Below are positions 3,576 to 30,112 of a DNA stretch of 64,000 nucleotides, piece by piece. The position numbers and the translations under genes were made by a program. The notes beneath the pieces are model-generated. The model saw only the letters and a list, made by a program, of their open reading frames with translations. It was not told where the DNA came from and did not search any database. The stretch comes from an uncultured Neisseriaceae bacterium. Lineage in GTDB: Bacteria > Pseudomonadota > Gammaproteobacteria > Burkholderiales > UBA11063. Position 1 is the stretch's first letter, and each line of letters opens with the position of its first letter. The stretch is taken from the NCBI GenBank assembly GCA_937872505.1, contig CALMTA010000137.1, forward strand, positions 132 to 64,131. Direction: 5' to 3'.

Positions 3576-4634
3576 ATGAATTTAGAACAACTTAAAAAAA
3601 ACGGTTGGATTATTTATGATGTGATTGTAGGCTCACATTTATACGGTACAAATAAAGAAGGTAGTGATACTGATACAAAAGGTATATTTATTCAACCAAC
3701 TAAAGAAATATTAGCAGGAAACTATATATCTCAAGTATCTGATGATAAACAAGATACTACTTATTATGAAATAGGCAGATTTATTGAATTAATAAGTGGA
3801 TCTAATCCAAACATGTTAGATGTATTAGGTAGCGATAAAATAATTTATGACAACGGATTATTTAGAAAATATTTTCCTGATAATAATAAATTTTTAACTT
3901 CTAAAATTAAACATACTTTTAGCGGTTATGCTTATTCTCAAATACAAAAAGCTAAAGGTTATAATAAGAAAGTTAATTGGGAAAAAAGTAGAACTGAACG
4001 TAAAGATGTTTTAGATTTTTGTTATATATTATTAGATAAAGAAGATAGTATTAAAATTAAAGATTTTTTTGAAGTACCTGAGAATACTTTTATAGAAACT
4101 ACACATTGGGGATTAGCTAAAATAAATAATTTTCCTGATTGTTATTCTATGTATTATTTTCCTGATGGTAATGGTGGTATTATATCTGAAGATTCTAATG
4201 ATGTTCAACTTAGAGAAATTCCTATTAAGTCTCAAAGAAAATACATACTTAGGTTTGATAAAGCAGCATACTCTACACACTGTAAAGATTTTAGAGAATA
4301 TCAACAATGGTTAATAGATAGAAATCCTCTTAGATATGCTGATAATGCTAAAGTAGGTAATGATTTTGATAGCAAAAACATGTCACATTGTATAAGATTA
4401 TTAAATACATCAATAGATTTACTTAGTGACAAAGGTTTAATTTTAAAAAGACCTGAAAAAGATTATTTAATAAGTATTAGAAATGGTGAAGTAAGTTATG
4501 AAACTATAATTAACGAAGCTGAAACAAAAATGGAATTATTAAATTCTTTATATGAAACTACTACATTGCCAAGAGAAGTTGATAGTAAATATATTTCAGA
4601 TTTATTATTACAAATTAGATTAGAGCACTTATGA
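3576..4634 (+). CDS. RlaP-like (Pol-beta superfamily) nucleotidyltransferase
   Basis: VGSHLYGTNKEGSDTDTKGIF = GS..YG....SDxD signature; NPNMLDVL; KNMSHCIRLL. Confidence 0.8.
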   Translation: MNLEQLKKNGWIIYDVIVGSHLYGTNKEGSDTDTKGIFIQPTKEILAGNYISQVSDDKQDTTYYEIGRFIELISGSNPNMLDVLGSDKIIYDNGLFRKYFPDNNKFLTSKIKHTFSGYAYSQIQKAKGYNKKVNWEKSRTERKDVLDFCYILLDKEDSIKIKDFFEVPENTFIETTHWGLAKINNFPDCYSMYYFPDGNGGIISEDSNDVQLREIPIKSQRKYILRFDKAAYSTHCKDFREYQQWLIDRNPLRYADNAKVGNDFDSKNMSHCIRLLNTSIDLLSDKGLILKRPEKDYLISIRNGEVSYETIINEAETKMELLNSLYETTTLPREVDSKYISDLLLQIRLEHL

Positions 4635-7530: not shown

Positions 7531-8094
7531 ATGGCAATTACTAACAAACAAGTAAAGGCGTGGACTGATTATTTTAACAGTCTATCTAAGGAAGAAAAAA
7601 AAGTAGCTCTTGCAAAAGATGCAATAGCTCAGATAAAAGCTGGTAGAACTATTCCTACTAATGTAACTTATTTTAAAAGTTTGCAAGATGAAGATTTTGA
7701 TATACAAAAAAATATAGATAAAATAAAATGTGAAGTTTGTGCTTTAGGTTGTTTATTTATTTCTTATATTAAATATAATAATAAATATAATACTAAAGAT
7801 TTAGAAGAAGATTTAATAGATGAAATTATTTTGGAAGATTTATCAAAGTATTTTACAGAAAAAGAATTAGTATTAATAGAACTTGCTTTTGAAAAATGGA
7901 GTTATGATGCCTTTTTAGATTTTGATACAAAAATATCACGAGGTATTGCTGCTGACAGGTACGTAGAAGAATTAGATATTACAGACGAAGAAATTGACAT
8001 GGCTTCTGAATTTAATGGTGATAGAAATGCCGATGAAGTATTAATAGAAATTTGTAAAAACATTATTAAAAATAAAGGAAAGTTTGTATTATGA
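7531..8094 (+). CDS. hypothetical protein
   Basis: 187-aa ORF. Confidence 0.55.
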   Translation: MAITNKQVKAWTDYFNSLSKEEKKVALAKDAIAQIKAGRTIPTNVTYFKSLQDEDFDIQKNIDKIKCEVCALGCLFISYIKYNNKYNTKDLEEDLIDEIILEDLSKYFTEKELVLIELAFEKWSYDAFLDFDTKISRGIAADRYVEELDITDEEIDMASEFNGDRNADEVLIEICKNIIKNKGKFVL

Positions 8095-9086
8095 TAAAAA
8101 TAATAGCAATAAAAACAGATACAGATTATTTAATTTCAGATAATACTGAAAATAAAGGATATTATAGTTCTTATTTACACAATTTGTTTTTTGATGGTGT
8201 AAAACCTGAAAAAACATTTAAATCAGATTGGTTTAAAATTAAAAATAAACCTGTTAAAATAGAAAGAGAAGTTATATCTCCATCTATAAATAAAAGATTT
8301 GAATTAAAATCTGAATTTGATAAAGGTGTTTTTAAAAAGGTTTGGTTATATTCTGAAGCTTACGATGAAGATTCTGAAATTGTTGATGAATTTAAAGATA
8401 TTAGAGTATTATATGATTATAAAGAAGATAAACAACCTAATACTTTAGAGAGTATAGAATTTGAATGGAAGACACTATTAGAAATAGAAGTATACACAGA
8501 ACCTCAAGGATTTAGTTATAAAACAATAGGTAAATGGCATAATGATGTTTCTCCATCTGTCACGCAAAGTAATTTAGAATATAATATTTTATCTCAAGTT
8601 TTAACTCCTTCTATACTTTTACATACACAACCTTGTAAATTAAGTAGTAAAGCAACATATGATATTATAAGAGCTTTTATTAAAGAAAATATAAATCCAA
8701 GAGTAGCTGAAATTAAAAGTGATTATGATTTTTGTTTTTCTGTTCATAAAAAAATATCTATAGCAAAACCTTATACTTATCAAATAGATGTAAATTCTTC
8801 TATATTTGGAGGAAGAAAAAAGAAGCCTAAATATGAAACAAGGCTTGTAGATAAAAAAAGTATACAGATATTTGAAATGACCCATAATCAAGCTGGAGGA
8901 AATGGTAGAGGTTATGATAAATATACATTAGTAACTCCTTTTGAAGCTGAAAATCAAGAAGCATTAAAAAAATATATAGATGCTTATTTAGAACATTTAA
9001 TTAATGTTATTAATGAACCTCTTTGTGAATGTGACAAATGTAATGGAACAGGTGTATTATTTGATCAAGAAATTGAGAAAATATGA
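8091..9086 (+). CDS. hypothetical protein with C-terminal CxxCxGxG zinc-binding motif
   Basis: ends LCECDKCNGTG. Confidence 0.55.
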   Translation: MIKIIAIKTDTDYLISDNTENKGYYSSYLHNLFFDGVKPEKTFKSDWFKIKNKPVKIEREVISPSINKRFELKSEFDKGVFKKVWLYSEAYDEDSEIVDEFKDIRVLYDYKEDKQPNTLESIEFEWKTLLEIEVYTEPQGFSYKTIGKWHNDVSPSVTQSNLEYNILSQVLTPSILLHTQPCKLSSKATYDIIRAFIKENINPRVAEIKSDYDFCFSVHKKISIAKPYTYQIDVNSSIFGGRKKKPKYETRLVDKKSIQIFEMTHNQAGGNGRGYDKYTLVTPFEAENQEALKKYIDAYLEHLINVINEPLCECDKCNGTGVLFDQEIEKI

Positions 9087-9513: not shown

Positions 9514-9706
9514 ATTAATTCCTACTGAAAATTGTCAATGTGGTACATGCAGTCTTTACAGAAAAATTAATACTATTAAGAACTTAGATGATTTATTAAA
9601 ATGTAAAGAAATATATCTTTACTTAAAAAAAGGAGTAGCTGGTCCAAGAATAGACAAAGCTGGTTATTTAATTTCTGAAAAACTAAAACAAATAGAAATA
9701 AAATGA
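9506..9706 (+). CDS. hypothetical protein
   Basis: 66-aa ORF with CQCGTC motif, overlapping neighbours. Confidence 0.45.
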   Translation: MIELIPTENCQCGTCSLYRKINTIKNLDDLLKCKEIYLYLKKGVAGPRIDKAGYLISEKLKQIEIK

Positions 9707-10404
9707 TTGAAAAAATTTGGGTTATTTCTGATACCCATACAAAACATTCAGAATTAAGAATTCCCGATGTTGATATTGTTATTCATGCGGGAGACATGAC
9801 TAATCAAAAAGGACCACTAAATAATAATGAAGCATTTAGTTTTATTAAATGGTTTGATAATTTAAGTATTAATAAAAAAGTATTAATTGCTGGTAATCAC
9901 GATTCAACTTTTTTTAATAAAGAAATTATATTTCCTAAATATTATTTAGAAGACAAATTAATAAAATATAAAAAGTGGTTAATATATGGTACTCCTTATA
10001 CACCTAAATTTTATAATTGGTATTTTATGTTAACTAAAGAGCAAGAAATAACTTGGGCTAAGAATATACCACCTTGTGATATTTTAGTTACACACGGTCC
10101 TCCTAAATTTATATTAGATAGTGTATATAGAGAAGATTATGATTTATATGAACATTGTGGTTCTGTAGAATTATATAATAGAGTTAATAAACTTAAACCT
10201 AAATTACATATAGTAGGACATATTCATAGTTCTTATAATAAAAAGTATCCTGAAAATAATGGAGTGTTTTTTAATGGTAATACTTGGTTTATAAATGCAA
10301 GTTGTTGTAGTGACGGTTATAAGTTACCATTAACTTCGCATGGTTGGATTGTAGAAGTAAACATTGATACTAAAGAAATAGTAAAGATATATAGAAATAT
10401 ATAA
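9703..10404 (+). CDS. calcineurin-like metallophosphoesterase
   Basis: ISDTH, IHAGD, IAGNHD, LVTHGPP, VGHIH: all five motifs. Confidence 0.9.
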   Translation: MIEKIWVISDTHTKHSELRIPDVDIVIHAGDMTNQKGPLNNNEAFSFIKWFDNLSINKKVLIAGNHDSTFFNKEIIFPKYYLEDKLIKYKKWLIYGTPYTPKFYNWYFMLTKEQEITWAKNIPPCDILVTHGPPKFILDSVYREDYDLYEHCGSVELYNRVNKLKPKLHIVGHIHSSYNKKYPENNGVFFNGNTWFINASCCSDGYKLPLTSHGWIVEVNIDTKEIVKIYRNI

Positions 10405-10420: not shown

Positions 10421-10529
10421 AACACACTTATAATCATAAACAAGGTATGTAAAACCTACGGTTATTGGTTCGAATCCAATATTACTTATTTAAGTAATTA
10501 GATCAATGGTAGATTGTAAAAAGTGTGTT
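10421..10529 (+). ncRNA. circularly permuted tRNA-like RNA (anticodon arm, T arm, acceptor stem closed by loop, D arm) enclosed in a 9-bp terminal stem
   Basis: AGGT-ATGTAAA-ACCT 10443-10457; ATTGG-TTCGAAT-CCAAT 10464-10480; ATTACTT-ATTT-AAGTAAT 10481-10498; TA; GATC-AATGGTA-GATT 10501-10515; outer AACACACTT 10421-10429 / AAGTGTGTT 10521-10529. Confidence 0.75.
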
Positions 10530-11887: not shown

Positions 11888-14746
11888 ATGAATAATATAA
11901 TTACACCTTGGGGAGAAATAGGATATATAGTATTTAAAAGAACATATTCAAGGAGACTAAAAGAAGACGATCCCAATAGTGAAACAGAAGAATTTATAGA
12001 TGTTATTAATAGAGAATTATTAGCTATATCTAAACAGTTAAAATTGAAATTAACTGATGATGAAATAGATTTTTATAGAAATACAAGATTATTATTAAAG
12101 TGGTCAGTAGCAGGAAGATTTATGTGGCAATTAGGCACTAAAACAGTTAATGATTTAGGATTAACAAGTTTACAAAACTGTGCTGGTGTAGTAGTAGATA
12201 ATCCTATAAGACCTTTTACTTGGGCAATGGAACTTCTAATGTTGGGTTGTGGTGTAGGCTTCAATATTCAAAAAGAGTATGTTTATCAATTACCTAAACT
12301 TAAGAAAAAAATAAAAATAGAAAGATTAGACACAAAAGATGCTAACTTTATATTACCAGACACACGAGAAGGGTGGGTCAAACTTTTGGGAAAAACATTA
12401 AAAGCACATTTTTATAGTGGAGAAGGATTTACTTATTCTACACAGTTAATTAGAAGTAAAGGAGCTGCTATAAAAGGATTTGGTGGATTATCAAGTGGTC
12501 CAGAAGAATTATGTAATGGCATTAATGATATTCATAATATTTTAAATAGTAGGTCTAATCAAAAATTAAGACCTATAGACTGTTTGGATATAATGAATAT
12601 TATTGGTTCTATTGTAGTAGCTGGTAATGTACGTAGGTCAGCACAAATAGCTATTGGAGATTATGATGATTTAGAGTTTTTAAAAGCTAAAAGATGGGAT
12701 TTAGGACAAATACCTAATTGGCGAGCAATGTCCAATAATTCTGTAGCTTGTGATAATATTGAAAATTTACCCATTGAGTTTTGGCAAACTTACGAACAAG
12801 GTGAACCTTATGGTTTGATTAATCTAAGATTAGCAAGATTAGTTGGTAGAACAGGAGAAACACAATATAGTGATAAAGATACAGTAGTTTTTAATCCTTG
12901 TTTTACATCAGATACAAAAATATTAACACCAGAAGGATATGTTGAAATAGGTAAAAATGTAGGTGAGTTAGAATTAATTAATAAAGAAGGTTTAATTGTG
13001 AATGGAAATATTTGGTCCAATGGTTTTAAAACTGTTATTGAAATACTTACTTCACAAAAAAATAAATTAAAATGTACTCCTGATCACATATTTATGTTAA
13101 ATGACGGTTCTGAATGTACTGCTATAGAATTATTAGGTAAAAGAATTATGCCATATTTTAGTATAAATGAAGAAATTAGTGAGTATACTAAATATGGTTT
13201 TATTCAAGGAGATGGTAATTTAACAAGGTTAAACTCTGAACCTCATAAAGGGCTTGAAATAAATATAGGTGAAAATGATTATGACATTTTTGAGTTATTT
13301 GACATTGAAAAAGAAGAAAATAAAAGAAGTTATTATACATCTGGATTTAATGAAATTTTAAAAATTTTAGGTTTTGACTCTTCTGTATTACCTATAAGAA
13401 GAATGCCAAATACTTTTTCGTTTTGGAGCAATAAAGATAAATTAATGTTTTTAAAAGGAATGTATTCTGCAAATGGCTCCATTATTAAAAATCATAGAAT
13501 TTCATATAAAACAGTTTCTCAAAAACTAGCATTAGAATTACAAGAGGCATTATTGCAATTTGATATATGTTCTTATATAACTATTAATAAGGAAAAAGAA
13601 GTTTTATTTTCAAACGGTAATTACTCTTGTAAAGAATCTTATGATATAAATATTTCTAAATATGATTCAATATTACAATTTGCTAAATTAATAGGATTTG
13701 TCCATAAATATAAAAATGAGTCTTTAAGAGAATTAATTTTAGCAAAATCTCCTAAAGTAATAAGTATTAAAGATGTTGGTTATCAAGAAGTCTTTGATTT
13801 TAACTTACAAGATGACACTCATTGGGGAGTTATAGATGGTTTAATAGCACATAACTGCTCCGAACAGTCTTTACACAATTATGAAACTTGTTGTTTAAGT
13901 GAAGTATTTTTACCTAATATAGAATCTTATGAAGAATTATTAAAAATATTAGAGATTACGTATAAAGTAAATAAACATAGTTTAGCTATATCATGTAATA
14001 TAAAGGAAACAGAAGAAATTGTTCATAAAAATATGAGAATGGGTATTGGAATGACTGGTATTTTACAAGCAACAGAAAAACAAAGAAGTTGGTTAAAAAA
14101 TGCTTATATTTGGTTAAGAGAATTTGATAAAATTTATTCTAAAGAAAATAACTTCCCAACAAGTATTAAACTTACTACTGTAAAACCGAGTGGAAGTCTT
14201 TCTTTACTTGCAGGTGTAACTCCTGGAATACATCCGAATCCTGCTGGTCCTTATTATATAAGGAGAGTTAGAATGGCAGCTAATTCTGTTTTAGTAAACT
14301 CTTGTCGAGAACATGGTTTTTTAACAGAGCATCAAATTAATTTTGATGGTAGTGAAGATAAATCAACTATTGTAGTTAGTTTTCCTTGTAAAGTTTCTGA
14401 AGATACTCCTATTGCAGCAAATTATGGATGGAAAGAACAAATAGAAATGGTTAGGAAAATTCAATCAGAATGGAGTGATAATTCTGTTAGTTGTACAATT
14501 TATTATAAAAAAGAAGATTTAGAAGATATCAAAGCATATTTAAAAACTTATTATGAAGATAACTTTAAAACATTATCTTTTTTATTATATCACGGTCATG
14601 GTTTTATACAAGCTCCTTACGAAACTATAGACAAGGAAACTTATGAAAAAATGGTTAGCACCATTAGACCTATTACCAGTATTAATGTTAAAGAAAAAGA
14701 TTTTAATATAGATGAATGTGAGAATGGTGCATGTCCTATTAAATAA
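11888..14746 (+). CDS. nrdJ: class II (adenosylcobalamin-dependent) ribonucleotide reductase, intein-containing
   Basis: VFKRTYSR, AGRFMWQLG, LQNCA, AGNVRRSA, NP[intein]CSEQ, ETCCLSE, TVKPSGS, C-terminal CENGACPIK. Confidence 0.93.
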   Translation: MNNIITPWGEIGYIVFKRTYSRRLKEDDPNSETEEFIDVINRELLAISKQLKLKLTDDEIDFYRNTRLLLKWSVAGRFMWQLGTKTVNDLGLTSLQNCAGVVVDNPIRPFTWAMELLMLGCGVGFNIQKEYVYQLPKLKKKIKIERLDTKDANFILPDTREGWVKLLGKTLKAHFYSGEGFTYSTQLIRSKGAAIKGFGGLSSGPEELCNGINDIHNILNSRSNQKLRPIDCLDIMNIIGSIVVAGNVRRSAQIAIGDYDDLEFLKAKRWDLGQIPNWRAMSNNSVACDNIENLPIEFWQTYEQGEPYGLINLRLARLVGRTGETQYSDKDTVVFNPCFTSDTKILTPEGYVEIGKNVGELELINKEGLIVNGNIWSNGFKTVIEILTSQKNKLKCTPDHIFMLNDGSECTAIELLGKRIMPYFSINEEISEYTKYGFIQGDGNLTRLNSEPHKGLEINIGENDYDIFELFDIEKEENKRSYYTSGFNEILKILGFDSSVLPIRRMPNTFSFWSNKDKLMFLKGMYSANGSIIKNHRISYKTVSQKLALELQEALLQFDICSYITINKEKEVLFSNGNYSCKESYDINISKYDSILQFAKLIGFVHKYKNESLRELILAKSPKVISIKDVGYQEVFDFNLQDDTHWGVIDGLIAHNCSEQSLHNYETCCLSEVFLPNIESYEELLKILEITYKVNKHSLAISCNIKETEEIVHKNMRMGIGMTGILQATEKQRSWLKNAYIWLREFDKIYSKENNFPTSIKLTTVKPSGSLSLLAGVTPGIHPNPAGPYYIRRVRMAANSVLVNSCREHGFLTEHQINFDGSEDKSTIVVSFPCKVSEDTPIAANYGWKEQIEMVRKIQSEWSDNSVSCTIYYKKEDLEDIKAYLKTYYEDNFKTLSFLLYHGHGFIQAPYETIDKETYEKMVSTIRPITSINVKEKDFNIDECENGACPIK
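12899..13855 (+). mobile_element. intein (319 aa) with LAGLIDADG endonuclease in nrdJ
   Basis: starts CFTSDTKILT, ends GLIAHN followed by +1 Cys; internal YGFIQGDG and FLKGMYSANG; removal restores FNPCSEQ. Confidence 0.92.
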
Positions 14747-15348: not shown

Positions 15349-16185
15349 ATGAAAGTAGATGTAGTTATACATGTTTACGGAAAACCTTGGCAAACTTTAT
15401 GTACTTTAAAAAGTTTGATGCTATATAGTTCTGAACACATAGATAAAATATATTTTGTTACAGAGCCTAAACAACCTTATAACGAAAAAGTAGATTGGGT
15501 TATAGATTATTTTGATAATATTATTCAATATACTCCTATTAAATCTATTTTAATGAATATTTGTAAGAATGTAAATAACGAAATAGAAAGACACAGTATG
15601 TATTGTCAATATGCTTTAGAAAAAACAGATAAACAATATATCTTTGTAACTCATAATGATATATTGTATACTGATGATATTATTGGAGACATGATTAATA
15701 ATATAGAAGACAATATTGCTATAGGGGAATTAGGTCAATGTTGGAATTGTCCCGCTCAACAATTTTGTGGAGGAGGAGCTAAATGGAATAGCTGGAATCC
15801 TACAGAAGAAGAAATTAATCAAATTAAAGAAAAACTTCCTTACGTCAGAACAAGTTTAAATAACTTAACTCCTAATAAATTTAAACTAATGCCTGAATGT
15901 AGATTAAATGAGTGGGCTTGTTTAATTAATGTAGAGTTATCTAATAAAGAAACTTATCCTAATGGTAATACACCTTTTTTTGGAGAATTTCATGTTGATT
16001 CTGGCACTGCTTGGTTTAAAAGTTTATATTTAAAGGGATATAATTTTAAAGATTATAGAAAAAATTATAGTCATACTTATTGGTCTGATTTGTCAAATGG
16101 TTATCAAACTGTGTTAAAAGAAAATTATTATTGGAAAGCAGAACAAAAAGCTGAACAATATTTTAATGAAAACTTTAAAATTTAA
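15349..16185 (+). CDS. GT-A fold glycosyltransferase (family 2-like)
   Basis: N-terminal VDVVIHVY..P...LKSL; KQYIFVTHNDILY (DxD position). Confidence 0.6.
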   Translation: MKVDVVIHVYGKPWQTLCTLKSLMLYSSEHIDKIYFVTEPKQPYNEKVDWVIDYFDNIIQYTPIKSILMNICKNVNNEIERHSMYCQYALEKTDKQYIFVTHNDILYTDDIIGDMINNIEDNIAIGELGQCWNCPAQQFCGGGAKWNSWNPTEEEINQIKEKLPYVRTSLNNLTPNKFKLMPECRLNEWACLINVELSNKETYPNGNTPFFGEFHVDSGTAWFKSLYLKGYNFKDYRKNYSHTYWSDLSNGYQTVLKENYYWKAEQKAEQYFNENFKI

Positions 16186-16193
16186 AAATAATT

Positions 16194-16835
16194 ATGAATA
16201 ATGTACATGATATAACTAAAGATTTTGAAAAAATGTTAGGTGATTACACTAATGCACCTTATGTTATAACTCTTGATAATCAATCTAATGCTTTATTTTT
16301 AGCATTATACTATGAAAAAAATATAGCAAAAACAATTATAAATGATACAATAATAATACCTTCCAGGACATATCCTTCCGTCCCTTGTGAAATAATTCAT
16401 GCTAATTTAAAAGTGCAGTTTAAGAAAGTAACAGGTAAAACTTTAACTGGAGCTTATAATCTTGAAAATAGTAATGTATGGGATTCAGCATTAAGATTTA
16501 CTGCTGACATGTATATGCCTTTTACTTATATGTGTATATCATTTACTGGTCCTTATAAACACTTTAAATTAAGTAAAGGAGGTGCTATACTAACAGACAA
16601 TTATGATGCTTATTTATGGTTTAAACGTGCAAGATATAGTGGTAGAAGAGAGTGTTCTTACCATGATGACCATTTTGATATGTTAGGCTGGAATTTTTAT
16701 ATGATGCCTGAATTAGCAGCAAGAGGAATTTTATTAATGAATCAATTTTATAATATAGATGGTACTAAAAAAAATAATGAAGATTTAACACTACCTTATC
16801 CTGATTTATCAAAATTTGATATATATACAAAATGA
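16194..16835 (+). CDS. DegT/DnrJ/EryC1/StrS-like PLP-dependent sugar aminotransferase (short form)
   Basis: NALFLAL, IIIPSRTYPSVP, VWDSA, SFTGPYKH (PLP Lys), GGAILTD, GWNFYM. Confidence 0.85.
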   Translation: MNNVHDITKDFEKMLGDYTNAPYVITLDNQSNALFLALYYEKNIAKTIINDTIIIPSRTYPSVPCEIIHANLKVQFKKVTGKTLTGAYNLENSNVWDSALRFTADMYMPFTYMCISFTGPYKHFKLSKGGAILTDNYDAYLWFKRARYSGRRECSYHDDHFDMLGWNFYMMPELAARGILLMNQFYNIDGTKKNNEDLTLPYPDLSKFDIYTK

Positions 16836-17425
16836 TAAAAGCATTAATTGGCTATGGTGGACACGCTAAAGAAGTTATGAGACAAATGAATATAATTTTA
16901 CCTTGTTTTGTAAGTGATAATTATTTAACAAATGAAACTATACCATTGTCTAAATTTAATCCTGCTAAATATATAGTTATGATTGCTGTTAGTAATTCAA
17001 TTGATAGATATAATATTGTTAATCAGCTTCCTAAAGAGACTAAATATTTTACATGGATACATAATACAGCTTTAATTATGGATAATAATATTGAAATAGG
17101 TGACGGTAGTTTTATAGGGGCTTACTCTATATTAACAACAAATATAAAATTAGGAAATCATACAATATTAAATAGAGCTAATCATATAGGACATGATTGT
17201 ACTATTGGAAATTATTTTACTGCTTTACCTGGCTCAATTGTTTCAGGAAATGTTAAAATAGGTGATAAAGTGTCTTTAGGAACAAACTCTTCTATAAAAG
17301 AAAAAATAACTATATGTGATAATGTAGTTATTGGTTTAAATTCAGGAGTAGTTAAGAATATTTTGGAACCTGGTATCTATGGTGGAGTTCCTGTTAAATT
17401 ATTAAAAAATGCCTATATTCAATAA
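16832..17425 (+). CDS. PglD/NeuD-like sugar acetyltransferase (hexapeptide repeat)
   Basis: LIGYGGHAK, HIGHDC, left-handed beta-helix repeats, YGGVPVK. Confidence 0.9.
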   Translation: MIKALIGYGGHAKEVMRQMNIILPCFVSDNYLTNETIPLSKFNPAKYIVMIAVSNSIDRYNIVNQLPKETKYFTWIHNTALIMDNNIEIGDGSFIGAYSILTTNIKLGNHTILNRANHIGHDCTIGNYFTALPGSIVSGNVKIGDKVSLGTNSSIKEKITICDNVVIGLNSGVVKNILEPGIYGGVPVKLLKNAYIQ

Positions 17426-17915
17426 ACATAAACTTATTTTTATACATATACCTAAAACAGGAGGAAGTAGTGTGGAAAAGGCTTTTCTTAATAAAGAAGA
17501 TAAATCATTATTTTATAGTGAGACTTATTTTATAAATAATCATAGTCCTCAACACTCTACATATATAGAATTAGAAAAATTAAATTTATTGTTTGAAGAT
17601 TATAAAATATTTACTATTATAAGACATCCTTATGAAAGATTTATAAGTGAATATAACTATTTATATACTAAAAATAATTTAGAAGATATTAATAATTTTG
17701 CTAAAAAGTTTTTAGGCTCTTCTAAAAATAAATATAATTGGGATAATCATCACTTATCTTGCAGCGAATTTATAAAAGAATGTAAAAACATTAATATTTT
17801 AAGATATGAAAACTTGCAAGAAGATTTTAAAAATTTTATAGGATTTAATCTCTTAGAACACGAAAATAAAGGTAATAAAATAATAACATTAGTAAATTTA
17901 ACAAAAAAAAATTAA
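17409..17915 (+). CDS. sulfotransferase family 2 protein
   Basis: FIHIPKTGGSS (5'-PSB) and IRHPYERFIS (3'-PB). Confidence 0.85.
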   Translation: MPIFNKHKLIFIHIPKTGGSSVEKAFLNKEDKSLFYSETYFINNHSPQHSTYIELEKLNLLFEDYKIFTIIRHPYERFISEYNYLYTKNNLEDINNFAKKFLGSSKNKYNWDNHHLSCSEFIKECKNINILRYENLQEDFKNFIGFNLLEHENKGNKIITLVNLTKKN

Positions 17916-18001
17916 AAAACAAATATATAATACTTGGAAAGAAGATTTTATTAATTTTAATTATCAAAAATAAGTTATATAATAATGTATAAAATATAAA
18001 T

Positions 18002-18838
18002 ATGTTAAAATGTATTAATTGGGGCAAAACTTTAAGATTAGGTAACTGGCTTTTTTTATATGCTGGTTTAAATTATTTTAGCAGAAAAAGTAATAACTCC
18101 TTAGTTTTACCAGATTTTTATTTGTGGAATTATTTAGAAAATCCACCTGTTATAAATAACAATAAAGATTTTGATTTAGAACATTCTTGGAGATATTTTG
18201 AGTATTCTGATGAAGAAAAACAGTATCAAATAGATATTTTAACTAAAAATGCAGATAAAATAATTAATATTGTAATGTTTCCTTATTTTCAAACAGAAAA
18301 ATGGTGGAAAGATGAAGAAAATTATATTTTAAATCTTCTTAAATTAAAAACAGATAAAATAGATGAAATTAAACAAAAGTATAAAAATTTGTTTAATACT
18401 TCTAAAGAAACCGTAGCAATTTCAATAAGAAGAGGAGATTTTGTAAAACATGGTGCTTTTTATCAAATACCTGAAAGTTGGTATGAAAAAGCGTTAGATT
18501 CTAATTTTAAAGATTGTAATGTTATAGTTTTTAGTGATGATATAGATTGGTGTAAAAAATATTTTAAGCACAGAAATTTCAATTATGCAGAATGTAATAA
18601 TACTCATTCTTTAAAAGGCTATGAAAATAATCCAATGGAACAATTTATTTTAGCCATTTTATGTGATCATGCAATAATAGGTAATTCTACATTTTCATGG
18701 TGGATAGCTTATTATATAAATAAGTTTAATAATGGAATAATCATTCATACTGGTAAAAACTTAACTAACGAAACAGATAAAATTTATAAAGCAAATAACA
18801 ATTATTATCCTAAAAATTGGAAACTTTTTAATATATAA
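18002..18838 (+). CDS. alpha-1,2-fucosyltransferase-like (GT11) glycosyltransferase
   Basis: RLGNWLF, SIRRGDF, FSDDIDWCK, NSTFSWW. Confidence 0.85.
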   Translation: MLKCINWGKTLRLGNWLFLYAGLNYFSRKSNNSLVLPDFYLWNYLENPPVINNNKDFDLEHSWRYFEYSDEEKQYQIDILTKNADKIINIVMFPYFQTEKWWKDEENYILNLLKLKTDKIDEIKQKYKNLFNTSKETVAISIRRGDFVKHGAFYQIPESWYEKALDSNFKDCNVIVFSDDIDWCKKYFKHRNFNYAECNNTHSLKGYENNPMEQFILAILCDHAIIGNSTFSWWIAYYINKFNNGIIIHTGKNLTNETDKIYKANNNYYPKNWKLFNI

Positions 18839-18840
18839 AT

Positions 18841-19377
18841 ATGAAAATTAAAGAATTATTAGAACAGAGAATTTATAACACAGATAAGTTTACATCTCAT
18901 CAATATTTGAATACTTATGAAGAATTATTCGAGCCTATACAACATAATGTTAAAAATCTATTAGAAGTAGGTGTATTAAGAGGAGAGTCTTTAGAATTAT
19001 GGAAAAATCTTTTTACTAACGCTGAAATATATGGAGCAGAACTTGTATCATCTGAAGTAACAATAAAACAACAAGAAAGAATAGAAATATTTTATGGAGA
19101 TGCCTACAACAAAGATTTTTTAAATAATTTTAAAGATATAAAATTTGATATTATTATAGATGACGGCAGTCATCAGTTTGAACACATGGATTTCTTTTGT
19201 AAATATTATAAAGATTTATTAAATATAAATGGTATTATCATAGTAGAAGATATACCTGCTATGGATTGGGCTGAAAAACTTAAAAAGTCATTAAATTTTA
19301 AAGATTCTTTTATTGTTGATTTAAGACATTTAAATAATAGATGGGATGATATAATGCTTATTGGTAAAAATAATTAA
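18841..19377 (+). CDS. class I SAM-dependent methyltransferase (sugar O-methyltransferase-like)
   Basis: LLEVGVLRGES, FDIIIDDGSH, GIIIVED. Confidence 0.85.
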   Translation: MKIKELLEQRIYNTDKFTSHQYLNTYEELFEPIQHNVKNLLEVGVLRGESLELWKNLFTNAEIYGAELVSSEVTIKQQERIEIFYGDAYNKDFLNNFKDIKFDIIIDDGSHQFEHMDFFCKYYKDLLNINGIIIVEDIPAMDWAEKLKKSLNFKDSFIVDLRHLNNRWDDIMLIGKNN

Positions 19378-19409
19378 CAAACTATTTAAAAGTTGATTAA
19401 AATAAACAA

Positions 19410-21113
19410 ATGATTAAAATATTAGCCTATTACAATAAAATGGTAGGTAGTCATTATCATAGATTACATGTTCCTTTAGAAAATCTTAAAGATAAGTATG
19501 ACATTACTATAGTTGATTCTATAAAAACAGATACTTGGGAAAATTTTGATATATTTATATATAACAGATATGTAAATTTACCAATATATAGTTTAAATCT
19601 ACTAAAAAAAAAATTTGGGTTTAAAATTATAATGGATATGGACGATAAAGTCACTATACCATTTTCTCATTATATGACTAAACTTTATGATACTCAAGCC
19701 ATACCTGAAAAAATAATATTGCACTTAAAAAACGCTGACTATGTAATATGTTCTACTGAATTATTAGCAGATAATTTAAAAAAATATAACAAAAATGTTG
19801 TAGTTATACCTAATGCTATAGATTTTTCAATTGATCAATTTAAATATAAAGAAAAAAAACAGAGTGATAAATTAAGAATAGTTTATCCTTGTTCTTTGAG
19901 TCATGAAAAAGATGTAAGGTTACTTGAGCTTTCTTTTAAAAAATTAGCTCAAGATATAAATTTAAAAGATAAGTATATATTTACTTTAGCGGGATACAGT
20001 GACTTTAATAATAAAAGTAAGCTTATATGGGATAATATGGTAAAAGTATTTAAATTAAGTGGTTCTTATAATATTATACCTAATAAAACAGTATTTGATT
20101 ATATGGAACATTATGATAATCAAGATGTTTGTATAATTCCTTTAATAGATGATTCGTTTAATAGAATGAAATCTGTTTTAAAATTAAATGAATCAGGAGC
20201 TAAAAAATTAGCTGTTATAGCTTCTAATGTACCTCCTTATGATAAAGAATCAGACTATTTTTTACCTGTTGACAAATCGGTAGATTGGTATAATCATGTT
20301 AAATATTTAATAAATAATCCAGAAGAAGTAAAAAATTATGCTAATAAGCTTTATGAATATAATAAAGAGAATTATGATATTAATGTGATTAATAAATTAA
20401 GAATAAATTTATTCGACAATGTTGTTAAATATAAAAAAGAAGAAAGTTTTAAATATAAAATAATTTCTATTACTTATGATACGCAGCAAATTACTGAATA
20501 TGATACATATTTTAATACTATTAATAGTGTGGCTCAAAAAAGTTATTTATTTGAATATAATCCTATAATAGATATTATAGATAATAATAAGTATAATATA
20601 AATTCTTATGATTATTTAGGTATTTTTAGTTGGAAGTTTGCTTTTAAATCTAAAGTTTCTAATATAGAAATTAACGATCATATAGACAATAACTATGATG
20701 CTTATGGATTTAATGCTCCTTTATTTAAAGATGGTAAAGATTACTTTACTCAAAGCAATAAATATCATCCTAACTTATTAAACATTATACGTATATTGTG
20801 TGAGGAAATAGGTATAAAATATACGGATAGTCCTAAATATGCTGTGTGGTCTAATTTTTTTGTAATGAGAACAGAATTATATAAAGATTATATTAATACT
20901 TATGTAAAACCTATTATAAATTTAATGGAAAATAAGTATAAAATTTTAGTATATAAAGATGCTAAATATGGAGGATTAACTAAAGAAAAATTAAAAGCTT
21001 ATACAGGCTTAGATTTTTACACATATCATACATTTATTTTAGAAAGACTAATTAGTCTATATTTACATAATAATCCTCAAATAAAATTTAAAAGTTGCAT
21101 TGGAAAGAAATAA
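19410..21113 (+). CDS. GT-B (family 4-like) glycosyltransferase fused to a second glycan-related domain
   Basis: YHRLHVP, IIMDMDD, VVVIPNAID, KSVLKLNESG..AVIASNV; C-terminal NFFVM...HTFILERL domain. Confidence 0.8.
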   Translation: MIKILAYYNKMVGSHYHRLHVPLENLKDKYDITIVDSIKTDTWENFDIFIYNRYVNLPIYSLNLLKKKFGFKIIMDMDDKVTIPFSHYMTKLYDTQAIPEKIILHLKNADYVICSTELLADNLKKYNKNVVVIPNAIDFSIDQFKYKEKKQSDKLRIVYPCSLSHEKDVRLLELSFKKLAQDINLKDKYIFTLAGYSDFNNKSKLIWDNMVKVFKLSGSYNIIPNKTVFDYMEHYDNQDVCIIPLIDDSFNRMKSVLKLNESGAKKLAVIASNVPPYDKESDYFLPVDKSVDWYNHVKYLINNPEEVKNYANKLYEYNKENYDINVINKLRINLFDNVVKYKKEESFKYKIISITYDTQQITEYDTYFNTINSVAQKSYLFEYNPIIDIIDNNKYNINSYDYLGIFSWKFAFKSKVSNIEINDHIDNNYDAYGFNAPLFKDGKDYFTQSNKYHPNLLNIIRILCEEIGIKYTDSPKYAVWSNFFVMRTELYKDYINTYVKPIINLMENKYKILVYKDAKYGGLTKEKLKAYTGLDFYTYHTFILERLISLYLHNNPQIKFKSCIGKK

Positions 21114-28972: not shown

Positions 28973-30112
28973 ATGAACAATGCACAATTAACCATTAAAC
29001 TAATTAACGTTTCCGATAAAAATAATAATAAGTATTATGATATGATAAATAATGGAAACGGTACATTCACAGTAAAGTTTGGAAGAGTTGGTGCATCTCC
29101 TATGACTAAAAATTATCCTATTAATAGATGGGATACTATTTATAGAGAAAAAATAAATAAAAATTATAAAGATATAACTAGTAATTTTAAAGCTTCCAAT
29201 TCTGAATTTTTATTTAAAAGCGATGATATTAAAGAATTTTATAATATTTTTTCCAAAAATGTAAATAATGTTGTATCAACTAATTATTTAGTAGATAATG
29301 TAAACAAAACTGTTATTGATGAATGCAAAAAATTGATAAAAGATTTATCTTATCATAATATAAATCTTAGTAATGAAGTGTTATTAGAAATATTTAAACT
29401 TATTCCTCGAAAAATGAATAATGTTAATAATTTCTTAGTAAAAGATTTAAAAGACATAAATCTTATTGTTGAAAGAGAAACTGATTTATTAGATACTTTA
29501 TCGAGTAAAATGAATTTACAAATAACTGAAAGTATAGATTTTTGTGATTTTTTCAACATAGAAATGAATATTGTTAATAATGATGAAGTTAATAAATTTT
29601 TAAATAGTACTAATAATACTAGTTCTAAAATTTATAAATTATTTTCTTTTAAGCATAAAGTAACAGAAAATAACTTTGATAATTGGGTAAAAGACCAAGA
29701 AAACAAGACTACTAAGTTATTAATTCACGGAACTAAAAATGGTAATATATTTAATATTTTTAAAACAGGATTGTTAATAAGACCCTCTACAGCTGTGTCA
29801 TTTGCTGGAAGTGCTTATGGAGATGGTATTTATCACAGTTTTCACACCAGTAAATCTTTAGGTTATGCTGATTATTCTAATAATAAATTGTTATTAATTC
29901 AAGATGTTCACTTAGGAAATTATTATACTTATAAAGGATGGTTTAGAGAAAGTAAAGATTTATCAAGAAATGAATTAAACTATAATAGTTTAAAGAATAA
30001 AGGTTATGATAGCTTATATGTAGAAGCAGGAGATGGATTACTCAATTCAGAATATATTGTTTATAACGCACAACAAACAACAACAAAGTACTTAGCATGG
30101 TTACAAAGTTAG
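28973..30112 (+). CDS. WGR-domain PARP-like ADP-ribosyltransferase
   Basis: NNNKYY...FGRVG (WGR); LIPRK (regulatory-domain-like); LLIHGT, YGDGIY, KSLGY, NSEYIVY (H-Y-E triad). Confidence 0.88.
   Translation: MNNAQLTIKLINVSDKNNNKYYDMINNGNGTFTVKFGRVGASPMTKNYPINRWDTIYREKINKNYKDITSNFKASNSEFLFKSDDIKEFYNIFSKNVNNVVSTNYLVDNVNKTVIDECKKLIKDLSYHNINLSNEVLLEIFKLIPRKMNNVNNFLVKDLKDINLIVERETDLLDTLSSKMNLQITESIDFCDFFNIEMNIVNNDEVNKFLNSTNNTSSKIYKLFSFKHKVTENNFDNWVKDQENKTTKLLIHGTKNGNIFNIFKTGLLIRPSTAVSFAGSAYGDGIYHSFHTSKSLGYADYSNNKLLLIQDVHLGNYYTYKGWFRESKDLSRNELNYNSLKNKGYDSLYVEAGDGLLNSEYIVYNAQQTTTKYLAWLQS

What the first reader, a model, noticed from the sequence alone, without database searches (positions are those of the whole stretch)
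10421..10529. Circularly permuted tRNA cloverleaf clamped in a terminal stem: permuted tRNA gene or Y-RNA-like tRNA mimic
Seen directly: the 3' half of a tRNA precedes its 5' half. The order is anticodon hairpin AGGT-ATGTAAA-ACCT, variable CGGTT, T arm ATTGG-TTCGAAT-CCAAT, 3' acceptor ATTACTT, linker ATTT, 5' acceptor AAGTAAT (7/7 pairing), U8-A9, D arm GATC-AATGGTA-GATT, G26, and T27, which can pair with A10458 to complete the anticodon stem. Rejoining at position 27/28 gives a 72-nt cloverleaf: AAGTAAT TA GATC AATGGTA GATT G TAGGT ATGTAAA ACCTA CGGTT ATTGG TTCGAAT CCAAT ATTACTT A. It retains U8, A14, G18-G19, the A15-U48 Levitt pair, T54-C56, A58, anticodon GUA and discriminator A. The whole is enclosed by a perfect 9-bp stem. 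Established: permuted tRNA genes are known from red/green algae and one archaeal lineage, and bacterial YrlA Y RNAs (about 110 nt) are tRNA mimics with T arm, loop-closed acceptor stem and D arm inside a terminal stem. This element is 109 nt but keeps an anticodon hairpin, and no Ro60 gene is seen in the window. A32, the short variable loop and A1-U72 are atypical for bacterial tRNA-Tyr. Inference: either a processed permuted tRNA or a decoy for anticodon nucleases or other tRNA-sensing defences. Standard tRNA scanners would probably miss it.
Basis: partly seen in the sequence, partly recalled or inferred. Interest (0 to 1): 0.88.

Follow-up and report, generated by a model that had tools for sequence, protein, structure and literature searches.

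The report
Orphan phage tRNA look-alike RNA
A phage carries a gene for a small RNA that folds like a complete tRNA with its parts in rotated order and its amino-acid end sealed; it is an odd, partner-less member of a large, largely undescribed family of phage tRNA mimics that normally accompany a Ro60-like protein.

Summary
Window 10421-10529 (+) holds, in order: a 9-bp clamp, a hairpin with a 7-nt anticodon-type loop, a T arm, a loop-closed 7-bp acceptor, a D arm, and the clamp again. An independent assembly is identical.

It is not an ordinary tRNA, and probably not a decoding tRNA-Tyr. Its body is generic class I, whereas 49 of 51 real tRNA-Tyr genes sampled are class II. It also has A32, which is found in 1% of real tRNAs.

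It has the YrlA/Y-RNA topology, though the Rfam YrlA score is below threshold. It aligns colinearly with dozens of phage units that I found here. Each of those is a clamp-held permuted tRNA mimic with a complete anticodon arm. Their clamp is followed by an invariant ACAGCAA motif, and 18 of 19 of their genomes encode DUF2828, a Ro60-related vWA protein.

This element lacks the motif (it has ATAATCA). The nearly complete ~94 kb phage and its bin have neither TROVE nor DUF2828. The element sits between a repair-type phosphoesterase and small ORFs, downstream of RlaP and Gad1.

Best reading: a Ro-independent, complete tRNA mimic, probably opened by RNase P, that acts as a decoy or scaffold for tRNA-directed enzymes.

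No transcript data and no covarying orthologs were available.

The parts
10421..10429 (+). Clamp (terminal stem), 5' strand AACACACTT
   Evidence: 9/9 Watson-Crick pairs with 10521-10529. It corresponds to the clamp of the handle-type relatives in alignment A1.
10430..10442 (+). Linker ATAATCATAAACA. It sits where relatives carry the invariant ACAGCAA motif.
   Evidence: Alignment A1: ACAGCAA is present in 16 of 16 relatives and ATAATCA here. AUAAUC can also pair with GAUUGU at 10512-10517.
10443..10458 (+). Anticodon-arm look-alike: AGGT / ATGTAAA / ACCT, plus A43, which can pair with T27 (10517).
   Evidence: hairpin probability about 0.8. The loop has U33, GUA, A37 and A38. It differs by one base (A32) from the tRNA-Tyr consensus CTGTAAA.
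10459..10463 (+). Variable loop CGGTT (class I length; G45, G46 and T48 are in tRNA-like positions).
   Evidence: read directly from the sequence.
10464..10480 (+). T arm ATTGG-TTCGAAT-CCAAT
   Evidence: aligned to the YrlA and tRNA models; probability about 0.85.
10481..10498 (+). Acceptor stem closed by a loop: ATTACTT - A73 + TTT - AAGTAAT (7/7 pairs).
   Evidence: Chen et al. 2014 (PMC4201824) show that a 7-bp closed acceptor in a YrlA is cut by RNase P and receives CCA.
10499..10517 (+). U8-A9, D arm GATC-AATGGTA-GATT (A14, G18, G19, A21), G26, T27.
   Evidence: The same D arm occurs in handle-type units L268-L270, L273 and L274. ViennaRNA predicts the D stem to be outcompeted.
10518..10529 (+). 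Linker AAA and clamp 3' strand AAGTGTGTT
9703..10404 (+). Calcineurin-type phosphoesterase gene directly upstream; a repair-module enzyme in relatives.
   Evidence: Pfam PF00149/PF12850. Its orthologs at 54-63% identity sit in clusters of RlaP, RNA ligase, AAA_33 kinase, Thg1 and Metallophos.
3576..4634 (+). RlaP nucleotidyltransferase (RNA 3'-end repair)
   Evidence: Pfam PF10127, E 2.5e-14; PHROG nucleotidyltransferase, E 8.6e-50. Its biochemistry is described in bioRxiv 10.64898/2025.12.29.696909.
8091..9086 (+). Gad1 (Gabija anti-defence) gene. It marks the region as a counter-defence island.
   Evidence: Pfam PF25705, E 3e-84.

Best explanation
The element is a gene for a small phage RNA of about 109 nt that copies a whole tRNA (acceptor, D, anticodon and T arms) in circularly permuted order. 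The acceptor end is sealed by a 4-nt loop. The RNA's own ends lie in the 5' strand of the anticodon stem and are held together by a 9-bp clamp. This is the topology of bacterial YrlA Y RNAs.

It is a diverged, partner-less relative of a large family of phage 'clamp + ACAGCAA + permuted tRNA' RNAs that normally go with a Ro60-related protein (DUF2828, or TROVE in a sister group).

Proposed mechanism (inferred): the RNA is made early in infection, together with the neighbouring counter-defence and RNA-repair genes. It folds into a tRNA-like L shape. Host RNase P probably cuts it at the sealed acceptor, and CCA is probably added there, which would leave two pieces held together by the clamp. It would then act as a mimic, not a decoder: a decoy, competitive substrate or scaffold for enzymes that recognise tRNA, and in particular a tRNA-Tyr-type anticodon loop. 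Candidates are host anticodon nucleases or the phage's own repair enzymes RlaP and the phosphoesterase.

Shown: the sequence architecture, the family relationship, the absence of a Ro-type partner, and the gene context.

Inferred: transcription, processing, and the decoy or scaffold role.
For: Architecture:
- The segments are as described.
- About 30 base pairs in five helices have no mismatch.
- The tRNA tertiary positions are intact: U8, A14, A15/T48, G18, G19, A21, G46, T54-C56, A58.
- An independent assembly is identical.

Family:
- 42 clamp-held permuted units were found in viral contigs.
- 27 of the 42 have a perfect 5-bp anticodon stem, partly supplied from after the D arm, with a 7-nt loop. 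Shuffles give 2.3 +/- 1.4.
- Among those 27, U33 is present in 78%, a purine at 37 in 93% and A38 in 81%.
- 12 of the 27 loops are identical to real tRNA anticodon loops, against 2.5% of linker 7-mers.
- A32 occurs in 41% of units and 1% of 1,727 real tRNAs. The window element has A32.
- The element aligns colinearly with 16 such units.
- It shares its D arm with units L268-L270, L273 and L274.

Mimic rather than decoder:
- The body is generic class I, while 49 of 51 real tRNA-Tyr genes are class II.
- 9 of 38 units duplicate the anticodon of an ordinary tRNA in the same locus.

Partner:
- DUF2828 is encoded in 18 of 19 genomes carrying ACAGCAA units and in 0 of 14 control genomes.
- DUF2828 matches phage TROVE proteins at 94.6% hhalign probability over the vWA/MIDAS part.
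- In this genome there is no TROVE, no DUF2828, and nothing with a custom HMM against all ORFs. C137 plus C100 cover about 90.7 kb of the ~94 kb phage.

Context: RlaP, Gad1 and a repair-cluster phosphoesterase.

Precedents:
- A YrlA with a 7-bp acceptor is cut by RNase P and receives CCA in vivo (PMC4201824).
- Phage tRNA-Tyr counters a defence that depletes tRNA-Tyr (PMC11555353).
- RlaP repairs damaged tRNAs.
Against: - No promoter or terminator is called at the element.
- No ortholog of this particular element exists in relatives at 54-66% protein identity. None was found in the viral, metagenome or genome pattern scans either. Covariation for this element itself is therefore unavailable.
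- The family's defining ACAGCAA motif and its protein partner are both missing, so the element could be a decaying relic.
- Energy folding prefers an extended clamp that abolishes the D stem.
- This phage lacks the RNA ligase and kinase that its relatives have; the ligase and Thg1 orthologs are on another contig, C123. A repair-linked role is therefore less obvious.
- No PrrC/RloC-type nuclease was found in the bin.
- The decoy role is an analogy and has not been tested.
Confidence: 0.5

Rival explanations
1. It is a genuine permuted tRNA gene. RNase P and 3' trimming plus CCA addition open the sealed acceptor, giving a two-piece tRNA held by the clamp, or a religated one. This tRNA is aminoacylated and decodes UAY codons, supplying tRNA-Tyr when the host's is depleted.
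For: - The cloverleaf is complete, with anticodon GUA, U33, A37 and discriminator A73.
- The acceptor has 7 bp, like the RNase P-cleaved M. smegmatis YrlA.
- In the family, class II bodies carry Leu anticodons, and some closing loops encode N73-CCA (read by eye).
- 44% of the family's loops equal real anticodon loops.
- Phage tRNA-Tyr is known to rescue phages from tRNA-Tyr depletion (PMC11555353).
Against: - The body is class I, while 49 of 51 real tRNA-Tyr genes in phages and hosts are class II.
- It has A1-U72 and A32; A32 is found in 1% of real tRNAs.
- A 9-bp helix projects from the anticodon stem at position 26/27.
- Close family members change anticodon (GGA versus GUA) on an unchanged class I body.
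- Units duplicate ordinary tRNAs next to them.
- There is no BHB motif and no RNA ligase in this phage.
- ARAGORN's acceptance of the re-permuted sequence does not discriminate.
Confidence: 0.12
2. It is a Y-RNA-type ribonucleoprotein component after all. The clamp and linker would bind an unrecognised protein, encoded by the phage or the host, that replaces Ro60/DUF2828. The particle would work in RNA quality control or repair, for example by presenting damaged tRNAs to RlaP and the phosphoesterase, or by recruiting a host exonuclease.
For: - The topology is shared with YrlA, and the YrlA model is the best Rfam hit.
- Sister families always come with a protein: TROVE, DUF2828, or DUF7873 next to the second mimic in this same bin.
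- The published view is that ROT/TROVE plus a tRNA-like RNA forms an RNA-repair platform in phages (PMC7824862).
- RlaP and the phosphoesterase are nearby.
Against: - No TROVE, DUF2828 or DUF7873-type gene lies next to it.
- The flanking small ORFs have no informative family.
- The conserved handle motifs (GNCGAA; ACAGCAA) are absent.
Confidence: 0.25
3. It is a decaying relic. A handle-type mimic was acquired from another phage, the DUF2828 partner was lost, and the RNA no longer works.
For: - ACAGCAA is replaced by ATAATCA. Three of the four changes are G/C-to-A/T transitions, in a genome of 23% G+C.
- There is no partner protein.
- Related phages have no ortholog.
- An alternative fold competes with the D arm.
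Against: - All five helices are free of mismatches, and every tRNA tertiary-contact nucleotide is retained despite strong A/T pressure.
- The stems are A/U-rich yet still paired, which points to compensated evolution in place.
- The sequence is identical in an independent sample.
Confidence: 0.1
4. It is a tRNA-like processing or stability signal at the 3' end of the phosphoesterase mRNA (tRNA punctuation). RNase P would cut there, and the structure would protect the upstream message.
For: - It starts 17 nt after the stop codon of the upstream gene, on the same strand.
- No promoter is called immediately upstream.
- It has an RNase P-competent acceptor/T-arm stack.
Against: - A processing signal would not need a full anticodon arm, a D arm with tertiary nucleotides, and a clamp.
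- Related units occur in arrays within tRNA clusters, not at mRNA ends.
Confidence: 0.03

Closest known systems
YrlA-type bacterial and phage Y RNAs with Ro60/Rsr (Rfam RF02553; Chen et al. 2014, PMC4201824)
   Same: Both are about 110 nt. Both have the permuted order T arm, loop-closed acceptor, D arm inside a terminal stem, and tRNA-like D and T loops. The 7-bp acceptor matches that of M. smegmatis YrlA, which RNase P cleaves and which receives CCA.
   Different: It scores 30.3 bits against a gathering score of 69. Sub-threshold hits are common at tandem tRNAs. There is no Ro60/TROVE gene in the phage or the bin. It has no GNCGAA-type Ro-binding helix. It carries a complete anticodon arm with a 7-nt loop, which the YrlA model lacks.
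Phage 'clamp + (Y)UUACAGCAA' permuted tRNA-mimic RNAs that co-occur with DUF2828. I found no published description of them; they were noted repeatedly in this scan and re-derived here.
   Same: The architecture is colinear from clamp to clamp. The anticodon stem is partly formed by nucleotides that follow the D arm. A32 is shared. The D arm GATC-AATGGTA-GAT is identical to that of units L268-L270, L273 and L274.
   Different: It lacks the ACAGCAA motif, which is invariant in 16 of 16 relatives, and the U.G pair at the clamp base. There is no DUF2828 gene, which 18 of 19 relatives' genomes have. It is a single copy outside any tRNA array.
Circularly permuted tRNA genes of Cyanidioschyzon merolae, other algae and Thermofilum (from established knowledge; mentioned in PMC3400036 and PMC4238349, listed)
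   Same: The 3' half lies upstream of the 5' half. A short linker joins the acceptor strands. The transcript ends pair with each other.
   Different: Those genes rely on a bulge-helix-bulge motif, the splicing endonuclease and a ligase to form a circular intermediate. No such motif or enzyme is seen here. The break here lies inside the anticodon stem (26/27-27/28). The body does not match the isotype of the anticodon.
Two-piece tmRNA from permuted ssrA genes (from established knowledge)
   Same: It is a bacterial precedent for a permuted tRNA-like gene. Its acceptor-linking segment is excised, leaving two base-paired pieces.
   Different: This element has no mRNA-like tag region and no pseudoknots. 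ARAGORN's tmRNA search finds nothing here.
Phage-encoded tRNAs that defeat tRNA-targeting defences (T5-family tRNA-Tyr against Retron-Eco7 PtuAB; PMC11555353)
   Same: Both are phage-encoded and have a GUA anticodon loop. This one lies in a counter-defence gene neighbourhood.
   Different: Those are ordinary, chargeable class II tRNAs that work by replenishing the pool. This one is permuted, sealed and class I.

Membership tests
YrlA / Ro60-bound Y RNA (RF02553) | Permuted tRNA-like domain: T arm, loop-closed acceptor and D arm inside a terminal stem. | tested here: met
   Sequence; cmscan alignment to the whole YrlA model, positions 1-114.
YrlA / Ro60-bound Y RNA (RF02553) | Score at or above Rfam's gathering threshold (69 bits). 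| tested here: not met
   30.3 bits; no hit at gathering threshold in the window. Sub-threshold hits occur in 13 of 14 control genomes.
YrlA / Ro60-bound Y RNA (RF02553) | Encoded next to, or in the same genome as, a Ro60/Rsr (TROVE) protein. | tested here: not met
   PF05731 is absent from the whole bin. The bin holds about 97% of the phage (C137 + C100). Positive controls: 5 phage contigs with TROVE.
YrlA / Ro60-bound Y RNA (RF02553) | Ro-binding helix with the conserved GNCGAAN0-1G motif (Chen et al. 2014). | tested here: not met
   Read directly from the sequence: clamp AACACACTT/AAGTGTGTT and the linkers contain no such motif.
DUF2828-associated ACAGCAA-handle tRNA mimics (undescribed phage family) | Colinear architecture: clamp, linker, anticodon hairpin, T arm, closed acceptor, D arm, clamp. 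| tested here: met
   Alignment A1 with 16 units; composite anticodon arm.
DUF2828-associated ACAGCAA-handle tRNA mimics (undescribed phage family) | Invariant ACAGCAA motif directly after the clamp's 5' strand. | tested here: not met
   ATAATCA at that position; C12, G14 and C15 are invariant in all the others.
DUF2828-associated ACAGCAA-handle tRNA mimics (undescribed phage family) | DUF2828 (PF11443) protein encoded in the same genome. | tested here: not met
   None in G000 with the Pfam model or with a custom HMM run with all filters off. Present in 18 of 19 relatives' genomes.
Functional (decoding) tRNA-Tyr, permuted gene | Re-permuted sequence is recognised as a tRNA by a standard finder. 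| tested here: inconclusive
   ARAGORN calls tRNA-Tyr(gta). It also calls many other anticodons for arbitrary junctions.
Functional (decoding) tRNA-Tyr, permuted gene | Body matches the isotype (bacterial and phage tRNA-Tyr: class II, long variable arm; C/U32). | tested here: not met
   5-nt variable loop. The best-matching real tRNAs are Thr, Ala, Asn and Val. 49 of 51 tRNA-Tyr are 82-93 nt long. A32 is seen in 1% of real tRNAs.
Functional (decoding) tRNA-Tyr, permuted gene | Processing to a free CCA end, aminoacylation, and use on the ribosome. | not testable with these tools
   Needs RNA end mapping and charging assays.
Algal/archaeal permuted tRNA genes | Bulge-helix-bulge motif at the paired termini, plus a splicing endonuclease. 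| tested here: not met
   The termini form a plain 9-bp helix without bulges. No such enzyme appeared in the Pfam annotation of the window.

The most novel reading that the evidence does not exclude
The element, and with it many of the clamp-held units in phage tRNA arrays, is a true permuted tRNA gene. RNase P and CCA addition would open the sealed acceptor to yield a two-piece, aminoacylatable tRNA held together by the clamp. This would be the first permuted or split tRNAs in bacteria or their viruses. They would be invisible to tRNA finders and perhaps resistant to host anticodon nucleases.
Probability: 0.1. Interest if true: 0.92.

Novelty: new variant of a known kind. Interest (0 to 1): 0.58.

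Why it matters
Bacterial Y RNAs are understood as Ro60-tethered tRNA mimics. This element shows the same permuted design, but with a full anticodon arm and with no Ro-type protein in a nearly complete phage genome. It sits beside RNA-repair and anti-defence genes. The tRNA-mimic module may therefore work on its own, for example as bait for tRNA-directed nucleases.

The family I recovered while tracing it has dozens of phage units. Their anticodon loops are often letter-for-letter copies of real ones, they are marked by A32, and they are tied to DUF2828. I found no description of this family in the searched literature, and standard annotation misses it. The family gives a concrete system for asking what phage tRNA mimics do, and whether any of them are cryptic tRNAs.

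Tried and rejected
- **Ordinary tRNA or tmRNA.** ARAGORN finds none in the window.
- **Rfam families other than YrlA.** Only weak tRNA, Histone3 and CrcZ noise.
- **ARAGORN on re-permuted junctions as a test of 'real tRNA'.** Rejected as non-discriminating.
- **Orthologs by synteny.** The phosphoesterase and DUF1599-like neighbours gave nothing useful in viral contigs. Flavobacterium phage relatives and contigs of relatives at 54-66% identity have no element.
- **Pattern scans for close homologs.** The metagenome scan, the genome-contig scan and the WIN-type linker scan in viral contigs gave only handle-type units or ordinary tRNAs.
- **Nucleotide search of the phage database.** No match in 'near' mode. 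In 'distant' mode, only T-arm matches to tRNAs.
- **Upstream hairpin CTTTT-TTT-AAAAG as a recurring promoter.** 14 matches against 14.9 expected.
- **Sigma-70 promoters and terminators.** Nothing above background.
- **G+C retention as a sign of selection.** Not distinctive.
- **Covariance model of the family.** Abandoned, because MAFFT misaligns the variable acceptor loops.
- **Reaching the rest of the 93-kb record.** Not held. This was resolved by finding the continuation on contig C100.
- **N4-like / virion RNA polymerase reading of the 4792-aa ORF.** Not confirmed by Pfam or PHROGs.
- **PrrC/RloC-type nuclease in the bin.** None found.
Full report
**1. Observation**

- A perfect 9-bp clamp, AACACACTT/AAGTGTGTT, encloses the rest.
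- Inside it lie a 13-nt linker, then a hairpin AGGT-ATGTAAA-ACCT followed by A, and the variable loop CGGTT.
- Next come the T arm ATTGG-TTCGAAT-CCAAT and an acceptor helix ATTACTT/AAGTAAT, which is closed by the loop ATTT.
- After that come TA, the D arm GATC-AATGGTA-GATT, G26, T27 and AAA.

ARAGORN finds no tRNA or tmRNA anywhere in the window. It calls the re-permuted 72-mer tRNA-Tyr(gta). That call is weak evidence. When I re-permuted 75 related units at many arbitrary junctions, ARAGORN called many different tRNAs for most of them.

Chance is excluded on other grounds:
- A T arm followed by a closed 7/7 acceptor occurs 0.075 times per shuffled window.
- A clamp of 9 bp or more between shuffled flanks has P=0.04.
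- The D arm and the anticodon hairpin come on top of that.

An independent assembly from another run (L259) is 100% identical over 13.7 kb including the element. An assembly rearrangement is therefore unlikely.

**2. Genome**

The window is contig C137 of a bin of 2.16 Mb and 316 contigs. The window has 23% G+C and the bin 28.8%.

It is phage DNA. Its genes include a ribonucleotide reductase with an intein, a PolA gene interrupted by group I introns and homing endonucleases, a 4792-aa ORF, Gad1, and a GP17-type superinfection-exclusion gene.

A 93-kb version of the same phage exists in public data. Contig C100 of the same bin is its continuation. C137 plus C100 therefore hold about 90.7 kb of about 94 kb. 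Pfam and PHROGs do not confirm that.

**3. Match to known RNA families**

On the small region, the best Rfam match is YrlA. It scores 30.3 bits with E 5.9e-5, over model positions 1-114, and the gathering score is 69. The T arm, closed acceptor and D arm are what align. Such sub-threshold hits are common at tandem tRNA genes; they occurred in 13 of 14 control genomes.

Neither the window nor the whole bin has a TROVE/Ro60 gene.

Chen et al. 2014 (PMC4201824) established that YrlA RNAs carry exactly this permuted tRNA-like domain. They also showed that the M. smegmatis YrlA, which has a 7-bp acceptor, is cut by RNase P and receives CCA in vivo, and that its halves stay together. Our element has a perfect 7-bp acceptor and A73.

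**4. The family**

I scanned viral contigs for a T loop followed closely by a D arm, and for TTACAGCAA upstream of a T loop. After structural filtering and removal of ARAGORN tRNAs, dozens of units remained with one plan.

That plan is a clamp of 8-18 bp, a linker, a 7-nt-loop hairpin, a T arm, a closed 7-bp acceptor, a D arm, a linker, and the clamp again. Many sit in arrays inside phage tRNA clusters.

In most units the 5-bp anticodon stem is complete only if 1-5 nucleotides that follow the D arm are combined with local ones. The RNA's ends therefore lie inside the 5' strand of the anticodon stem.
- Of 42 clamp-held units, 27 have a perfect composite 5-bp stem with a 7-nt loop.
- Shuffles give 2.3 +/- 1.4 (maximum 7), and other loop sizes give 8-11.
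- In those loops U33 is present in 78%, a purine at 37 in 93% and A38 in 81%.
- Twelve of the 27 loops are identical to an anticodon loop among 1,727 real tRNAs, against 2.5% of control 7-mers from the units' own linkers.

These are complete tRNA mimics. They also differ systematically from tRNAs: A32 occurs in 41% of units and in 1% of real tRNAs. Nine of 38 units repeat the anticodon of an ordinary tRNA in the same locus. Close relatives change anticodon (GGA versus GUA) on the same class I body.

**5. Protein partners**

One subgroup has GTTAC-type linkers (L038, L069, L081, L098, L101). It lies in contigs that encode TROVE, so these are classical phage Y RNAs.

In the larger subgroup the clamp is followed by an invariant ACAGCAA motif. 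Earlier notes of this scan claimed that this 'handle' accompanies DUF2828. I tested that claim.
- PF11443 is present in 18 of 19 such contigs, and in 6 of 6 that are near-complete. It is present in 0 of 14 control genomes.
- A profile comparison of four phage DUF2828 proteins with five phage TROVE proteins gives 94.6% probability and E 7e-8 over about 181 columns. Those columns cover the vWA/MIDAS part (DVSGSM).
- DUF2828 is therefore at least partly Ro60-related. The N-terminal part did not align.

A second mimic in this bin, C210:28617-28734, lies directly after a DUF7873 gene in a 379-nt gap.

**6. Where the window element fits**

It aligns colinearly with 16 ACAGCAA-type units. It shares their A32. 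Its D arm matches that of units L268-L270, L273 and L274.

But it has ATAATCA where all the others have ACAGCAA, and it lacks the U.G pair at the clamp base. The genome has no DUF2828 by the Pfam model, nor by a custom HMM run with all filters off against all 3,179 ORFs of the bin.

It is a single copy and lies outside any tRNA array. Related phages at 54-66% protein identity lack it. No WIN-type relative turned up in the metagenome, genome or viral pattern scans. Covariation for this one element therefore cannot be measured. The structural argument rests on its own flawless helices and on the family.

**7. Decoder or mimic?**

The re-permuted body is most like generic class I tRNAs (Thr, Ala, Asn, Val, Met). 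In contrast, 49 of 51 real tRNA-Tyr genes in the same phage and host sample are class II (82-93 nt), and 45 of the 51 carry the loop CTGTAAA.

The element's loop ATGTAAA differs from that consensus only at position 32. It is thus a Tyr-type anticodon loop on a non-Tyr body. That fits bait for enzymes that read the anticodon loop better than it fits a TyrRS substrate. This is an inference.

**8. Context**

The gene directly upstream is a calcineurin-type phosphoesterase. In relatives its ortholog sits in heal-and-seal clusters made of RlaP, an RNA ligase, an AAA_33 kinase, Thg1 and Metallophos.
- This phage keeps RlaP (3576-4634) and the phosphoesterase.
- Between them lie Gad1 and a superinfection-exclusion gene.
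- It lacks the ligase, kinase and Thg1. The ligase and Thg1 orthologs in the bin are on C123, which belongs to another phage.

RlaP adds one or two nucleotides to damaged RNA 3' ends. It is needed to restore heavily damaged tRNAs (bioRxiv 10.64898/2025.12.29.696909). Iyer et al. 2021 describe these phage repair sets, and the idea of a TROVE protein plus a tRNA-like RNA as a repair platform (PMC7824862). Phage tRNA-Tyr overcomes a retron effector that depletes tRNA-Tyr (PMC11555353). Thermus phage Ro60 binds phage Y-like RNAs and host PNPase (PMC12135203).

**9. Caveats**

- ViennaRNA prefers an extended clamp, AUAAUC/GAUUGU, that removes the D stem. It scores -22.4 against -19.3 kcal/mol, and the D stem has probability 0.01. 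Energy models often miss weak D stems, but this alternative fold is specific to this element and remains unexplained.
- No promoter or terminator was called, and the upstream hairpin does not recur.

**10. Verdict**

The element is best read as a Ro-independent, complete tRNA mimic of the Y-RNA/YrlA design. It is an orphan offshoot of a large phage family, for which I found no published description in the searched literature.

I rate a mimic, decoy or scaffold function at about 0.5 to 0.75 when the unknown-partner variant is included. A true two-piece tRNA rates about 0.1, and a relic about 0.1.

Noticed in passing
G000 contig C210:28617-28734 (+) (locus L008:7783-7900): A second permuted tRNA mimic in the same bin, on a different phage-like contig of 32.9% G+C. 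It has an outer stem CAAGATG/CATCTTG, a T arm, an acceptor closed by a 20-nt loop, and a 3-bp D arm, but no anticodon hairpin. YrlA score 33.8 bits.
   Followed up: partly
Viral loci L055, L063, L086, L131, L145, L146, L148, L161, L165, L168, L175, L186, L197, L208, L213, L216, L223, L227, L233, L240, L268-L270, L273, L274: A large family of clamp-held, circularly permuted complete tRNA mimics, with an invariant ACAGCAA after the clamp. They often form arrays inside phage tRNA clusters. 18 of 19 host contigs encode DUF2828. 44% of their loops equal real anticodon loops. A32 is at 41%, against 1% in real tRNAs. Class II bodies appear to carry Leu anticodons, and some closing loops encode N73-CCA (these last two points were read by eye).
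   Followed up: partly
Loci L251 (691-4708) and L254 (1-4699): In related phages the phosphoesterase ortholog is the last gene of an RNA heal-and-seal cluster: RlaP, an RNA ligase (PHA02142/PF09414), an AAA_33/Zeta-toxin-type kinase, a Thg1-like 3'-5' polymerase, and Metallophos.
   Followed up: partly
G000 contig C123 (13.9 kb): Another phage-like contig in the bin. It carries the RNA ligase (447 aa) and Thg1 (319 aa) orthologs missing from the window phage, plus ordinary tRNA-Met, tRNA-Val and tRNA-Arg genes. It probably belongs to a second, related phage.
   Followed up: no
window 10430-10435 with 10512-10517: Linker AUAAUC is complementary to GAUUGU (D-stem 3' strand + G26 + U27). This gives an extended-clamp fold that competes with the D arm. 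It may be a conformational switch, or it may be chance.
   Followed up: partly
window 28973-30112: A phage protein with a WGR domain and a PARP catalytic domain (PF00644, E 3e-17).
   Followed up: no
window 11888-14746: A ribonucleotide reductase gene carrying an intein with a LAGLIDADG endonuclease.
   Followed up: no
window 50842-56384: A DNA polymerase A gene in pieces. Two group I introns reach Rfam's threshold (51777-52025 and 53233-53479). GIY-YIG and LAGLIDADG homing-endonuclease ORFs lie between the exons.
   Followed up: no
window 15349-21113: A run of sugar-modification genes in a phage: DegT-type aminotransferase, hexapeptide acetyltransferase, sulfotransferase, GT11 fucosyltransferase-like enzyme, methyltransferase and GT4-like transferase.
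   Followed up: no
window 33958-48336: A 4792-aa ORF with no Pfam match. Its only PHROG match is a DprA/SLOG-like domain at residues 4206-4386. It is followed by further giant ORFs (1331, 1584, 865 and 2755 aa) that continue onto contig C100.
   Followed up: partly
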